NCBI GenBank assembly: GCA_963789265.1
Contig: CAWBKB010000005.1
Location: 704,001 to 768,000, forward strand
Length of the DNA stretch: 64,000 nt
Source: an uncultured delta proteobacterium
GTDB taxonomy: Bacteria > Desulfobacterota > Desulfomonilia > Desulfomonilales > Desulfomonilaceae
Reading direction: 5' to 3'
Positions 33,001 to 39,000 of this stretch are shown here, in pieces. The position numbers are program-made. Within the stretch, counting starts at the first letter, position 1, and each line of letters begins with the position of its first letter.

Positions 33001-36000
33001 CAGAGCGATCCAACACGAGTCCGGCATCGCCGAGAGTCTTCACCGGAAACCCAAGGATGCCATAAATAACCGGGAGATAGTAACCAGTGTTAGGGAAGGC
33101 CAACTCCTGCTTCTTTCCATACTTTTTGACAGCTTTTTCGTATTTCGTCCTGGCCTTCTCATAGACCTTGTGAGCGCCGGATATGACATTTGCTGCGACT
33201 ATCTTTGACACTGTTTGTTTCCTCCTGTGGAGACGTTAAAGCGGATCGGAGGGGAAGAGGCGGCCTCTCCCCCGGGTTGTGCCGAAACTCACAAATTATC
33301 CGGCTATTTCTCTGCGCATGGCCATATCCATGAGCACGCGCTCTCTGGCCTTGTCTATACCGAGTGCTTTTCTTTTGGAATCAATATGGGCTAGGCAGCG
33401 TTTGGCCATCTCATACGGGTCTTTCTCAACGAAATCCCATCTTCCGCCGTAAACCTTCTCGATATCTTTGAACAGGTAATTGGTACAGATGTCCTCGTTG
33501 ATCGTCGGGAAGCCAGCGCCAAAGAGGACATAACAGCCGGAAGCGACGAAGTACTGGCCGATTGACACCGCCTTCTCACTCATCCACTCGGGTGCCACGC
33601 CTACCGCAGGCAGATCGGAGATGTCATCACCGAGTCCGCCGTCCCTGACGACCGCGGTAGCGGCCATGAGGATCCTGGAGTTATCAACACAGGAACCCAT
33701 GTGCAGGACGGGCGGTATGCCCACGGTTTCGCAGACTTCGGCAAGACCGGCTCCTCCATATTTGGCCGCTGCTTCCGGTGTCAGCAGACCTGCCTTCCCG
33801 AGGGCTATGGCTGCGCAACCGGTGGTGAGGACAAGAACATCGTTCTTGATAAGTTCTTTGGCGAGTTCGACATGCAGGAAGTCGTGCTGAACTCGTGGAT
33901 TCCCGCAACCGACTATGCCGGCCAGACCACGTACGCGACCGTTAATGATGTTGTCATTCAACGGCCGATAGCTGGCGCGGAACAGACCGCCTAGCATATA
34001 GGTTATGGTTTCGTGGCTAAAGCCGACTACCATGTCCTGTTGTTCTGTTGGGATTGAAACTTTGCTCTTGTCCCTGTTGGGGAAGTTGTCAATGGCGTCC
34101 TTGACGATCGCTTTTGCAGTCTCGAGACCGTAACGTTCGTCATACGCGTAATGCTTGTACGCACCCTGCATCTGCGCGATGGGACTCGTGGTCACTACCT
34201 GGGTGTGGAAGCATTTAGCCAATTCCGCAAGGCCCTGCATCACACACTGAACGTCCACCACGATGGCCTCGAGGGCTCCGGTAATGACAGCCATTTCCTG
34301 CTGCAGGTAATTGCCCGCAATGGGAATGCCGTGGCGCATCAGGATCTCGTTTGAGGTGCAACAGATGCCACCAAGGCTAATTCCACCGGTTGCTCCCTTG
34401 CTCTTGGCGTATGCGATCGTTTCCGGGTCCTGAACAGCCTGGACAATAATCTCGGAGAGAGAGGGCTCATGGCCGTGAACAATGATGTTCACGGTGTCTT
34501 CCTTCATACATCCCAGATTCACCTTGCCAAGTACCGGTACTGGGGTCCCATAAAGGATGTCGGACAGGTCGGTGGCTATCATGGAGCCGCCCCAGCCGTC
34601 GGCGAGGGCGCACTTTGTGGAAAGGCGTATGATGTGCTCCATGTCCTGATTGACGCCCATGTGGGTCATGTGCATAACTTCGACAACGGGGCGGTCAATC
34701 CCGGCAGGCACAACCCCTTCTTTACGCCAGATTTCCTGACGCTTCAGGGGCGCTCGCTGGACGTTGACGATCTCACCGTCCTGTTGGCCGTATTGCTGCA
34801 AAGCCTTTTCGCCGACTTCGATAGCTATGTCCTTGATCTCTCGGCCTTCCGTCTGGATGCCGTAATCCATGGCCACTGCGAGAAGCTTGGGAATGTCTTT
34901 GATCTGATAGTCGGGGAGTTCACCCTTGGCTGCGTGGAGAAAGGTATGGGCCACATGTCGGCCGTGATCGCTGTGCGCGGCTGCACCGGCGGCAACCATC
35001 CTGGCGAAGTTACGGGCGGCAATTGTTTCCGGGGTTGCTCCACACAGACCGCATCTCTTCTTTCTCTCTTCCGGTGTTTCCGTCTTTCCCTTAGGTGGTA
35101 AGACGCGGCATGGTCCCATGTTACAGATTTTGCAGCAGGTCCCACCTTTGCCTATCGGGCAGGCGGTCATAGTTCGGGAACGATGAAATGCGGTGGAATA
35201 GCCTTCTCTGTCAGCTATTTTCAGACCTTCGAGCGTTACTGGATCGATAGTATGCTGGGTCCAGTCGGCAGGCCCAATCTCTTTCTTCTTGGCGGGCGGC
35301 GCAACAACTGCCGGCCCTGCCGCTTTAGCTGCGGCGGGTGCCTCGCCTGCGAAGGCCGATCTCAGGGCCTTGAACACAGTAACCATCTCTTTGAGGTCTT
35401 TAACGAGTTCGTTGGGCATGAGGGCTTCCTCTTGTACATCTGTGGATTTGGCAGCCGCGGCTGGCATTTCCTTGTCAGGGGCAGCTTTCTCGACCTTGGC
35501 AGCCGGTTCGGGCTTCGGCACGGGCGCGATCTTCTGCTCCGCGGGTTTGGCCGGGACAGGCTTAGCCGCCGGCTTCGCGGCAGCGGGGGCTGCCTTACTT
35601 GGGGCAGGCTGAGCCTCGGCGGCAAAAGACATGTCCACCCCCATAGCGTCTAGAGTGGTCTCGATCATCACGTCGGATAAGTACTTGCGAATATGATCCA
35701 GGGTCTTGGGGTGCCTCAAAATCAGAATGTCGGAACCTGCCTGAAGGGCACTCAGACCGGTTATTGCCTCGAGATTGACTGCTCGTACGCCGGCGTCGCC
35801 CAACCTCGGCTCTTCTTCGGTGGGGAGCTTTGCTTCTTTGGTCTTCCAGACTTCTTCGGCAATATTATTGATAATGGGATACTGAAGCTTATCGTCGTTC
35901 TGGGTCAGGGCAGCCTGACGGATTCTTTCCATGATAGAATAACAGTATTCCATCCCGTAACCCACGGAGCCTGTGGTTGGATCAATAAGGATCTTGTCAT

Positions 36001-39000
36001 TGGGTACGCCGAGGTTTTCGAGAAGAATATTGAGTTGCTTGGCGAGGTTTATATCAATGGGGGAGTTCGCCGCAACCACATGCTTATATGCTATGGCAGC
36101 CGCTCCCACCTGCTTGTAGTTCCCCTCTGTGACCGGACCTATTACGACGTTCAACCCCGCGCATGACTCTGCCACAGCTTTGAGGACCTCAGTATTCTTG
36201 TCGTCATTGGAGGTTCCCCAGACAATTAACGGAACACTGATCGCCTCGGCCACCTCTTTGGCGACTTTGGCCGCGTGTTCGGCAGGGAGGTTCTTGCCGT
36301 TAGGATCGGTACCTGCGAGCCAAAGGCACACTATGTCGGCCTTGTATGTATCAACGCATTTCTTTGCCCAGGCAACGGGGTTGCCCAGCACGTCCTTAAA
36401 AGGTTCCAGGGCTTCTGCGGCCCATTCTTCGGGTTCGACGTCCAAAACTTGAAGAGCGAGCTTCGGAGTATTAGGAGTCTTTCCCTCGAAAGAGTAGAAG
36501 CTGTAGCCCGTCTCTCCGCCTACAATCACTTCACATCCTGGTTTTCCTATCTTGATTTCGCGGATTTTTCCGGAGTACTTTATTTTTGGCAGTTCAGCCA
36601 TACGCCACCTTCCTTAGCCGGGTTATTAGACAGTGAGGTCATTCATATTCTTTGGAAAGAACATCTCAGGCGGGATTCTTTCTCTTTTCGCTGCCAAACC
36701 ACTCTTTGGAATAGAAGTATCTTTCCGCGGTGGTAAGGTATCTCATGGCGGGGCGGGTTGCCTCGCCAATGTTGACGGAGTTGATATTAGTTCGCCACTG
36801 GTAACGGTCCTGGTCCGTACCTTCAGCGTAAGTGGGCATCAAGATTTTGACCTTTTGCCCATCAAACCGCTCTTTCTCTTCGTACTTGTCGGCAGGCATA
36901 AACGCACTCCTCTCTCGTATCGAGGTCCTTAATTGACTATGGCAAAAAGCTGCCAGGGGTCTTGCTTTTTCCGGAAACCGGAGACTGCGATGGGTAAGCC
37001 TTATTATTATGCCGAACTATCCTTGTGACCGCAATATTTTTTTGGGAATTTGCCGTAGATAGTACGTTTTCGGAAAAGGCGCGCGGGCAAAGCTGGTTCG
37101 TCCAGGTGCCGCCACAACGGCGTAATTCCGTCATAGTAATTCAGGCTAAACTGCATGCAGTCGTTGAGATCCGGGGTACCCGCGCAATGAGTAAGCCGCA
37201 ACCATAACAAGACCGCGGCAATGAACGGCGCACCGGATACAAAAATTATTATAGCAGGTGGGGATCATTTGTGGAAGTGCCCGAGCACTATTGTCGGACG
37301 CATCACTTACGCCGGGAATCTTCCGTCCCTTGTCGTGGCGAGGAGCGACGTCCCGCGGCCCGCGGGATTCGCAATGACAATCTCTTCCCTGGCACAACTG
37401 AGTGCCCGGCCACTGTAGCGAGATCCGGCGTGGGATGAGCAGGCTAAAGCCTTACTGACGGCTTAGGTCTCTTTGCTAGATAATCCAGCCGGTTGAGGGC
37501 GTTCACCATGGCTTTTGCAGAAGCGACGAGTATGTCCTCGTGCGCGCCCTTTCCCACTGCTATGCTGCCGGCTTCTTCGAGGCGAATGGTCGCTTCGCCG
37601 AGGGCGTCAGTTCCGTCGGTGATGGCACTGATCGAGAACCGCAAGAGCTTAGGATTACGGCCCGTCAGCCTCATGATTGTGTTGTAAGCGGCATCGACGG
37701 GGCCGTTGCCCAGTTCGGCTCCATGATGCTCAAGCCCTTCTATTTCCATGCTTACTGTCGCAGTAGGAACGACATGCGTGCCGGACATGATGGTGACGGA
37801 GAGCAACTTGTAGGTCTCTGCAATCCGGAGGACTTCTTCCGCTATGATTGCTTCAATGTCCTCATCGAAGATGGTCTTCTTGCGGTCGGCAAGATTCTTG
37901 AATCGCTCGAAGGTGCGATTGATCTCCTCTTCGGTCAGTTGGTAACCCAATGATTTGATTCGCTCCCTTAGAGCATGGCGACCTGAATGCTTTCCAAGCA
38001 CTAATGAGGATTTCGCGATCCCGACTGATTCGGGGTCCATGATTTCGTATGTGGACTTTTCTTTGATAACGCCGTCCTGATGTATGCCGGCTTCATGAGC
38101 AAAGGCGTTGGCGCCGACTATGGCCTTATTGGGCTGGACCGTGATCCCCGTGATAGCGGTGACAAGGCGGCTGGTGTGGAAGATTTGCTGAGTGACTATA
38201 CCGGTGTGCACGCCGAATACGTCTTGCCTAGTTTTGAGGATCATGGCTATTTCTTCAAGGGAGGCGTTTCCGGCACGCTCGCCGATTCCGTTGATGGTAG
38301 CCTCCACTTGTCTGGCGCCGGCCCTGATAGCCGACAAAGAATTTGCAACCGCGAGTCCTAGGTCGTTGTGACAGTGGACTGAGATAACGACATTCTCGAT
38401 GCCCTTTATCGTGTCGCGAACCGTCCGAATTAAGCCGGCGATCTCCTCCGGGTAAGAATAACCAACCGTATCGGGGATATTGATGGTCCCCGCTCTCTCG
38501 TTGACAGCGGTTTGTATTACGCGGCAAAGGAAAGCGGGATCGCTGCGGGTGGCGTCCTCGCAGGAGAACTCCACCCAATCCGACAGAGACCGAGCCAAAC
38601 GCACGGCTTGGCCGGCACGGTCGACGACCTCGTCGCGCGACATTTTCAGTTTATGTTCAAGGTGTATGTCACTAGTGGCGATGAATGTGTGGATGCCCGG
38701 AAGAGGGGCGTCCTCCACCGCGCGCCAGGCGGTTTCTATATCTTCTGCTGCCGCGCGGGCCAGGCCCACGACGCGGACGGTCTTGACTTCGCGGGCGATC
38801 TTGCTCACAGCCTCTCGATCACCTTCAGAACTCGCGGGAAAGCCCGCTTCAATGATGTCTACTCCAAGATTCTCCAATTGCCTTGCCAACTGAAGTTTTT
38901 CCTGCTGGTTCATAGTAGCGCCGGGTGACTGCTCGCCGTCCCGGAGAGTGGTGTCGAATATCAGAACTCTTTCCGACATTTCCTCCTCCTATCAATTTGA

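What a model noticed while it worked through the whole genome (the two positions that open the first line are those of the whole stretch)
33296..36601. CO dehydrogenase of the Wood-Ljungdahl cluster is fused to the corrinoid Fe-S protein small subunit (AcsD-CooS)
The acs-cluster CODH is an 1101-aa protein: full AcsD (CdhD) domain, a ~130-aa Ala/Pro/Lys linker, then CooS/AcsA. The fusion is the family norm, including D. tiedjei, and covalently tethers the corrinoid iron-sulfur protein to the CODH/ACS complex, a natural tethered methyl-transfer machine.
Evidence so far: Domains CdhD 15-256 and Prismane 488-1062; sequence and linker. Single ORFs of 1102 and 1124 aa read directly in G043 and G066; junction matched without stops in 9 of 15 family genomes sampled. 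More than 50 database proteins of about 1000-1150 aa with both Pfams, one named D. tiedjei. Searches found no report.
(Added by a program. Inside this text positions count along the whole contig: contig position 704,001 is position 1 of the stretch shown here. "Call 12" and the like, gene names such as g00115 and contig names such as C1 are that model's own, and its searches are not shown. The text may have been shortened before it was handed on; [...] marks where a part breaks off. The agent that wrote the report below was given it as the finding of a first reader that could run no searches.)

Follow-up and report, generated by a model that had tools for sequence, protein, structure and literature searches.

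The report
CO dehydrogenase fusion with hidden start
In one family of anaerobic bacteria, the CO-making enzyme of an ancient carbon-fixation pathway is joined to a subunit of its methyl-carrying partner, and a conserved second start signal inside the gene probably lets the cell make the enzyme both with and without that partner attached.

Summary
The 1101-aa AcsD-linker-AcsA(CooS) ORF is real, with all CODH metal ligands intact. It is the usual state in the family (Desulfomonilaceae by nearest named hits): fused in 38 of 45 decidable genomes out of 60 sampled, split in 7. The fusion itself is not unreported: Inoue et al. 2019, Supplementary Table 1, lists the D. tiedjei protein as 'fused with ACDS delta subunit'.

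What I did not find in print: the linker holds a Shine-Dalgarno-ATG (M395) conserved at synonymous sites, followed by a conserved amphipathic helix. The Met is present in 30/30 loci and 58/59 database fusions, but in only 1/16 stand-alone AcsD paralogs that keep the helix. Split relatives start AcsA at this ATG and keep the helix on both halves.

Best reading: one gene yields a 118-kDa tethered form and a 76-kDa free CODH, and the helix may let the parts re-associate. Nothing is shown biochemically; the helix oligomer prediction gave no verdict. Two scan look-ups by sequence and one by words listed no earlier report of this fusion, but listed MetF-AcsD and AcsB-AcsD fusions on other DNA.

The parts
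33296..36601 (-). acsD::acsA fusion ORF, 1101 aa, 118.3 kDa
35663..36601 (-). AcsD domain (CoFeSP small subunit), aa 1-313; the only AcsD match found in G000
35420..35617 (-). Linker 1, aa 329-394, Ala/Pro/Lys/Glu-rich (51 of 66 residues), predicted disordered, poorly conserved
35428..35433 (-). Internal Shine-Dalgarno-like site AAGAGG at -14..-9, conserved at synonymous positions
35417..35419 (-). Internal in-frame ATG (M395); predicted start of a 707-aa, 76.2-kDa helix-AcsA isoform (33296-35419)
   Evidence: use as a start is inferred
35354..35410 (-). Conserved amphipathic helix, aa 398-416; also at the N-terminus of split AcsA and the C-terminus of stand-alone AcsD in relatives
   Evidence: (low pLDDT)
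35267..35347 (-). Linker 2, aa 419-445, Ala/Pro-rich
33296..35266 (-). Ni-CODH (AcsA/CooS) domain, aa 446-1101, with D/B-cluster Cys 481/489/490/493/498/520, C-cluster H711, C748, C786, C899, C929, C971, and H543/H546/K1010
   Evidence: (alignment to 6YTT/9FZY); cluster roles of the residues are from my knowledge of CODH structures
36606..36615 (-). Shine-Dalgarno of the 5' start of the fusion
36666..36899 (-). Conserved 77-aa ORF of no known family, directly upstream of acsD; marker for gene order
37006..37034 (-). Conserved promoter-like site (TTGCxx, 17 nt, CATAAT) upstream of the 77-aa ORF; likely operon promoter
   Evidence: 12 loci aligned; function inferred
31004..33211 (-). acsB, three-domain acetyl-CoA synthase, 735 aa
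29524..30865 (-). acsC (CoFeSP large subunit), frame break near 30580 in this assembly
28047..28937 (-). acsE methyltransferase, 296 aa

Best explanation
A standard bacterial Wood-Ljungdahl CODH/ACS operon in which the neighbouring genes acsD and acsA became one reading frame while a working ribosome-binding site and ATG stayed in front of the CODH half. SHOWN in sequence: the fusion, intact ligands, the conserved SD-ATG, the helix, its presence on both halves in split genomes. INFERRED: (1) ribosomes start at both sites, giving AcsD-AcsA (118 kDa) and helix-AcsA (76 kDa), so CODH dimers carry 0, 1 or 2 AcsD; (2) the tethered AcsD binds AcsC to form CoFeSP and, on about 110-130 flexible residues, swings between AcsE and ACS, which raises its local concentration at the docking site on ACS A1/A3; (3) the helix is a self-association module that links fused, free-AcsA and stand-alone AcsD chains, which is why the covalent link can be lost again. 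Odds: fusion real 0.98; internal start used 0.75; tether aids methyl transfer 0.6; helix associates 0.45.
For: Internal start: Met in 30/30 loci and 16/16 genera; codon -4 is GAG in 25/30 (GGG 2), codon -3 GAA in 24/30; among 66 conserved Glu columns (mean GAG 0.45) these two are 11/12 and 0/12 GAG. With amino acids fixed and synonymous codons resampled: SD core at -14..-8 in 14/16 vs null 9.4+-1.8 (5/500 reach it); mean local fold -5.8 vs -9.5 kcal/mol (0/500); GAG-GAA in 10/11 Glu-Glu pairs vs 12/75 elsewhere. GC3 0.38 there vs 0.67 in the CODH core. Anti-SD duplex <= -5 kcal in 27/29 vs 12% of 946 Met codons; the anti-SD tail is in G000's 16S. Met in 58/59 database fusions; the exception P0079 has a degenerate CODH half. 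Stand-alone AcsD keep the helix but have the Met in 1/16. Split acsA genes begin at the same SD-ATG. Polarity: order 77-aa ORF, acsD, acsA in many outgroup loci and in fused genomes; 77-aa ORF directly before acsA in split genomes. The helix profile finds split AcsA N-termini and 13/16 stand-alone AcsD tails at iE<0.01. Docking of the small subunit on A1 and A3: Yin et al.. AcsD is also fused to AcsB in Anaerolineae.
Against: No protein, ribosome-profiling or RNA data. Genera are related, so the resampling nulls overstate significance. The internal SD is weaker than the 5' one on average (-6.3 vs -8.8 kcal), and internal starts in a translated frame may be little used. 7 genomes manage without the covalent link. 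The helix is low-confidence in the monomer model (pLDDT about 55 or below). The AcsA tree does not settle polarity: a clade of fused copies is not rejected (p-AU 0.334). The second fused lineage (L051, L052) shows no SD-ATG before its helix, so an internal start is not required for such a fusion. The tether's reach was not measured on coordinates.
Confidence: 0.6

Rival explanations
1. Obligate 1:1 covalent tether: only the full chain is made; the SD-ATG is a relic of the ancestral acsA start or is conserved for protein reasons.
For: In-frame Glu-Glu-x-x-Met is what an ordinary SD reads as, and unfused outgroup acsA leaders read that way too, so the site is probably ancestral. The 5' SD is usually stronger. 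The second fused lineage lacks such a site.
Against: A relic should decay: synonymous choices are scrambled in the other Glu columns but fixed here, while the flanking linker is barely alignable. The Met is lost where no working CODH follows (15/16 stand-alone AcsD, P0079).
Confidence: 0.15
2. Nearly neutral read-through fusion: adjacent genes merged, the internal start keeps CODH supply normal, and the fusion is tolerated rather than useful; the linker only keeps the domains out of each other's way.
For: acsD lies immediately upstream of acsA in many outgroups, so fusion is an easy mutation. Split state in 5 genera. Second acsD copies are common, near-identical to the fused copy in two genera (96-99.8%). 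AcsD also fuses to MetF-like proteins, which suggests a generally fusion-tolerant subunit.
Against: Kept in 38 of 45 decidable genomes; the helix is conserved on both halves after splitting, which neutrality does not explain; AcsD has been joined to CODH or ACS in several lineages.
Confidence: 0.17
3. The short form comes from an internal transcript or from proteolysis, or the purine-rich site is a pause or frameshift signal that releases free AcsD, not a translation start on the full mRNA.
For: Disordered linkers are protease targets. An internal promoter would also use this SD-ATG. SD-like sites can stimulate frameshifts (recalled).
Against: No promoter-like site in the linker; 7 sites found in the region vs 6.3 expected. 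Proteolysis or frameshifting would not conserve an ATG at fixed SD spacing, and I saw no conserved slippery run in the codon table (by eye).
Confidence: 0.07
4. Assembly artefact: a lost stop codon in an indel-prone genome.
For: G000 has several split genes in this window (acsC, pgk, ilvB-like, PEP synthase).
Against: 31 of 60 other family genomes and 55 close database proteins show the same single frame; a 1099-aa RefSeq protein is listed by Inoue 2019.
Confidence: 0.01

Closest known systems
D. tiedjei WP_014808137.1 in Inoue et al. 2019 (PMC6344411, Suppl. Tables 1 and 2)
   Same: [quoted passage not shown] P0009, named D. tiedjei, is the same type.
   Different: One table row; in the passages and rows I saw there is no family survey, linker anatomy, internal start, second acsD or split forms.
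Bacterial CODH/ACS + CoFeSP of Clostridium autoethanogenum, Moorella, Carboxydothermus (PDB 9FZY-9G03, 6YTT, 2H9A, 4DJD; Yin et al. bioRxiv 2024.08.05.606187)
   Same: Same subunits and ligands; three-domain AcsB.
   Different: There CoFeSP is a free, transient partner; here AcsD is on the CODH chain and carries a linker helix absent from those subunits.
Archaeal ACDS of Methanosarcina acetivorans (Zimmer et al. 2026 preprint, PMC13370988)
   Same: Works-like analogy: a short helix in a disordered arm of the CoFeSP small subunit oligomerises and is proposed to tether CODH and ACS.
   Different: That helix is N-terminal on CdhD, the CODH is CdhA-type with CdhB, ACS lacks A1, nothing is fused. 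The authors know of no oligomerising bacterial CoFeSP. Homology of the two helices was not tested; oligomerisation here is not shown.
Bacterial genes with in-frame internal starts (E. coli infB, clpB, mrcB, arcB; Meydan et al. bioRxiv 520783)
   Same: One gene, full-length plus N-terminally shortened product, SD before the internal codon.
   Different: Here the start lies at the border of two fused ancestral genes of a metalloenzyme complex, and it is inferred from conservation, not measured.
MetF-AcsD fusions (Desulfobacterota) and AcsB-AcsD fusions (Anaerolineae)
   Same: AcsD joined to a pathway partner by a long flexible linker (earlier scan notes).
   Different: AcsD is C-terminal there; different partner; the helix profile does not match their linkers.

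Membership tests
Ni-CODH (CooS/AcsA, TIGR01702) | HMM score above curated cut-off | tested here: met
   593 bits vs 478
Ni-CODH (CooS/AcsA, TIGR01702) | D-, B-, C-cluster ligands and His/Lys acid-base residues | tested here: met
   15 residues read out and aligned to 6YTT/9FZY
Ni-CODH (CooS/AcsA, TIGR01702) | CO/CO2 interconversion | not testable with these tools
   no assay
AcsA of a Wood-Ljungdahl acs cluster | Clustered with acsB, acsC, acsD, acsE | tested here: met
   acsC has a frame break in this assembly
AcsD / CoFeSP small subunit | Full-length TIM-barrel subunit homologous to solved AcsD | tested here: met
   NF003376 395 vs 280 bits over 3-312 (NF003377 509 vs 527 and NF040759 342 vs 430 fall below cut-off); 2H9A_B, 9FZY_E E<1e-74; folded in model
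AcsD / CoFeSP small subunit | Binds AcsC to form CoFeSP | not tested
Archaeal-type ACDS supercomplex | CdhA/CdhB-type CODH and ACS lacking the A1 domain | tested here: not met
   cdhA model 50.7 vs 781 bits; AcsB has CODH_A_N
Archaeal-type ACDS supercomplex | N-terminal disordered arm with coiled-coil helix on the small subunit | tested here: not met
   AcsD starts at residue 3 of the models; the helix is C-terminal to the domain
Archaeal-type ACDS supercomplex | Helix-driven oligomer of the small subunit | tested here: inconclusive
   complex prediction gave no verdict
Genes with functional in-frame internal initiation | In-frame start codon with SD at proper spacing and weak local structure, conserved | tested here: met
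Genes with functional in-frame internal initiation | Short product or initiating ribosomes detected | not testable with these tools
   needs proteomics or ribosome profiling

The most novel reading that the evidence does not exclude
Desulfomonilaceae built a bacterial counterpart of the archaeal ACDS supercomplex. One gene makes tethered and free CODH in a ratio set by two ribosome-binding sites, and the linker helix is a coiled-coil hub that gathers CODH/ACS and CoFeSP. The covalent link is then optional: split lineages keep the helix on both halves and reassemble the same machine non-covalently.
Probability: 0.3. Interest if true: 0.85.

Novelty: new variant of a known kind. Interest (0 to 1): 0.66.

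Why it matters
Methyl transfer from CoFeSP to ACS depends on a transient contact that was captured only recently. A natural tethered version in a cultured autotroph (D. tiedjei), with natural split versions in the same family, lets one test directly whether proximity speeds acetyl-CoA synthesis or cleavage, and gives a ready-made cryo-EM target and a design hint for gas-fermenting strains. If the internal start is used, it is a clear case of a gene fusion that keeps its second start to tune subunit ratios in a core metalloenzyme. If the helix oligomerises, it overturns the present contrast between archaeal scaffolded and bacterial unscaffolded complexes. Practical point: annotation names this protein only as CODH, so acsD can be scored as missing in these genomes.

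Tried and rejected
- Complex prediction on 4 copies of residues 388-424: no verdict (scores 0.04, 0.15; controls not folded). Not used either way.
- The look-up of sequencing runs (RNA): no RNA holder listed; read laying not run.
- Independent origins of AcsD-AcsA fusions: the quick AcsA tree places the family, P0071-75, P0081-83 and P0084 apart, but holding the first three together is not rejected (p-AU 0.216; P0084 left out as a long branch). Linkers differ. Unresolved.
- Polarity by tree: fused-only clade p-AU 0.334; split-only clade p-AU 0.345. Unresolved; polarity rests on gene order and the shared helix.
- In-frame 'Glu-Glu-x-x-Met' upstream of split acsA as proof of fission: rejected, since any SD reads so.
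- Homology of the linker helix to those of the second fused lineage or Anaerolineae: no HMM hit.
- acsD remnants upstream of split acsA: none by tblastn in 5 loci.
- Internal promoter: scan at background.
- 77-aa ORF: no NCBIfam hit, no usable atlas hit; not scanned against Pfam.
- Literature: 8 full-text searches listed no paper describing the fusion in its main text; the supplement of PMC6344411 did. Subscription papers, bioRxiv supplements and the supplements of PMC13370988 were not seen.
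Full report
1. Observation. window:33296-36601(-) is one 1101-aa frame. Pfam gives CdhD 15-256 and Prismane 488-1062. NCBIfam gives AcsD over 3-312 and anaerobic CODH over 457-1082, above cut-off. Solved CoFeSP small subunits match 3-311 and CODHs 451-1082. All cluster ligands are present (their roles are from my knowledge). Downstream lie acsB, acsC (frame break near 30580) and acsE. G000 has no other AcsD match and one further CooS on C1. AlphaFold2 gives two folded domains, disorder over about 320-397 and 417-438, and one low-confidence helix at 398-416.

2. Distribution. Of 120 listed database hits, 67 carry both Pfams; 55 of them form a close group (76-91% identity) whose named members are Desulfomonile or Desulfomonilaceae. 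In 60 other family genomes (with checks): 31 have one stop-free frame with both domains; 5 more span the junction on cut or frameshifted contigs; 2 have AcsD joined to the helix with later frame breaks; 7 (G011, G012, G021, G025, G026, G032, G042; 5 genera) are split; 15 cannot be decided (8 cut inside the linker, 5 partial, 2 no match). In a phylum sample, 94 genomes outside the family had an AcsD match; only 2 (one family) had it fused to CooS. Eight other long frames that I fetched carry an N-terminal MetF-like part (recognised by eye). Further AcsD-CooS fusions exist in P0071-75, P0081-83 and P0084. Whether they arose separately is unresolved.

3. Prior art. Inoue et al. [quoted passage not shown] The fusion is therefore on record as one table row. 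Eight full-text searches listed nothing more on it. PMC12827605 (passages and supplement search), PMC13370988 (abstract, passages, sections 9, 11, 12) and PMC5736913 (passages) do not mention it in what I saw. Subscription papers and unseen supplements may.

4. The linker hides a start site. Linker 1 is barely alignable, but it ends in Glu-rich residues, a Met and a conserved helix. In DNA the Met is ATG in 30/30 loci and 16/16 genera; codon -4 is GAG in 25/30 and codon -3 GAA in 24/30, which puts GAGG at -12..-9. Among 66 conserved Glu columns, mean GAG use is 0.45; these two columns are 11/12 and 0/12, and only one other column is as extreme in each direction. Keeping amino acids fixed and resampling synonymous codons, an SD core appears in 14/16 genera against 9.4+-1.8 (5 of 500 resamples), local folding is -5.8 against -9.5 kcal/mol (0 of 500), and Glu-Glu is GAG-GAA in 10/11 against 12/75 elsewhere. 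Genera are kin, so these figures overstate. GC3 falls to 0.38 there against 0.67 in the CODH core. The Met is in 58 of 59 database fusions scored (60 examined, 1 missed by the pattern); the exception has a degenerate CODH half.

5. Two natural controls. Many family genomes have a second, stand-alone acsD. The 16 copies fetched from 14 genomes end in the same kind of helix, yet only 1 has a Met before it; a helix profile finds 13 of them at iE<0.01. So the Met is not needed for the helix. In split genomes, acsA begins at this same SD-ATG, so the site can serve as a start. Against: the internal SD is weaker than the 5' one on average (-6.3 vs -8.8 kcal/mol), though stronger (-12) in several loci; and the second fused lineage has no such site before its helix.

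6. History (inferred). Outgroups have tail-less acsD directly before acsA. A conserved 77-aa ORF precedes acsD in many outgroup loci and in fused genomes, but precedes acsA directly in split genomes. With the helix on both AcsD tails and AcsA heads, the simplest order is fusion, duplication of the 5' part, then loss of the acsD part from the operon. Trees neither confirm nor reject this. In genera g11 and g14 the two acsD copies are inverted and 96-99.8% identical over 1.1 kb, and mostly group by genome, which suggests gene conversion; collapsed assembly is not excluded. In G028 they are 72% identical.

7. Mechanism. In C. autoethanogenum the CoFeSP small subunit docks on ACS domains A1 and A3, and A1 belongs to the rigid CODH core (Yin et al., parts 1-2 of 4 read). 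A flexible arm of about 110-130 residues should let tethered AcsD, with AcsC bound, shuttle between AcsE and ACS; I could not measure the distance. A second start would give CODH dimers with 0-2 AcsD, uncoupling CODH supply from CoFeSP. The helix may associate chains, as a short helix in the disordered arm of archaeal CdhD does (Zimmer et al.); this is an analogy only. In-frame internal starts are known in E. coli infB, clpB and mrcB (Meydan et al., passages).

8. Verdict. Real, family-wide, already noted as an annotation, function untested. The internal start, the shared helix and the split forms are the new part, as far as my searches reach. New variant of a known kind; interest 0.66.

Noticed in passing
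window 36666-36899 (-): Conserved 77-aa ORF with a strong SD at the head of the acs operon; 59-97% identical in family loci, 32-48% over most of its length in Syntrophales, Dehalococcoidia and other loci; no NCBIfam or atlas hit. Candidate unrecognised acs accessory protein.
   Followed up: partly
window 37006-37066 (-): Conserved promoter-like site with an upstream CGTnCTATC box and a downstream ACCCATC motif in 12 aligned loci; possible regulator site.
   Followed up: partly
L106:7396-12843, L109:2816-5773: Anaerolineae AcsB-AcsD fusion with an Ala/Pro linker and helix; L106 and L103 AcsB carry large insertions that look like inteins (by eye).
   Followed up: partly
L031, L037, L038, L041, L049, L050: Two inverted acsD copies 96-99.8% identical over about 1.1 kb bracket leuA-pssA; gene conversion, possibly an invertible segment; many contig breaks fall at acsD.
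   Followed up: partly
L047:5857-8577, L048:7655-9481: Third-type stand-alone AcsD (906 and 608 aa) with repeated helical units inserted before the terminal helix.
   Followed up: no
P0079, P0076: P0079 is an AcsD-linker-helix fusion to a degenerate CODH lacking the Fe-S cysteine region and the internal Met; P0076 looks like a related drifting copy.
   Followed up: no
L042:7597-9843: Orphan helix-AcsA copy outside the acs operon in G032, basal in the family clade.
   Followed up: no
L140:1458-3863: AcsC and AcsE in one 801-aa frame in G157; real fusion or assembly error not checked.
   Followed up: no
window 22475-25124, 29524-30865, 41953-43304, 44500-46268: Several frame-broken housekeeping genes (PEP synthase-like, acsC, ilvB-like, pgk/tpi region): the assembly looks indel-prone.
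   Followed up: no
window 26082-27761 (+): 559-aa ORF with no Pfam or NCBIfam hit next to acsE.
   Followed up: no
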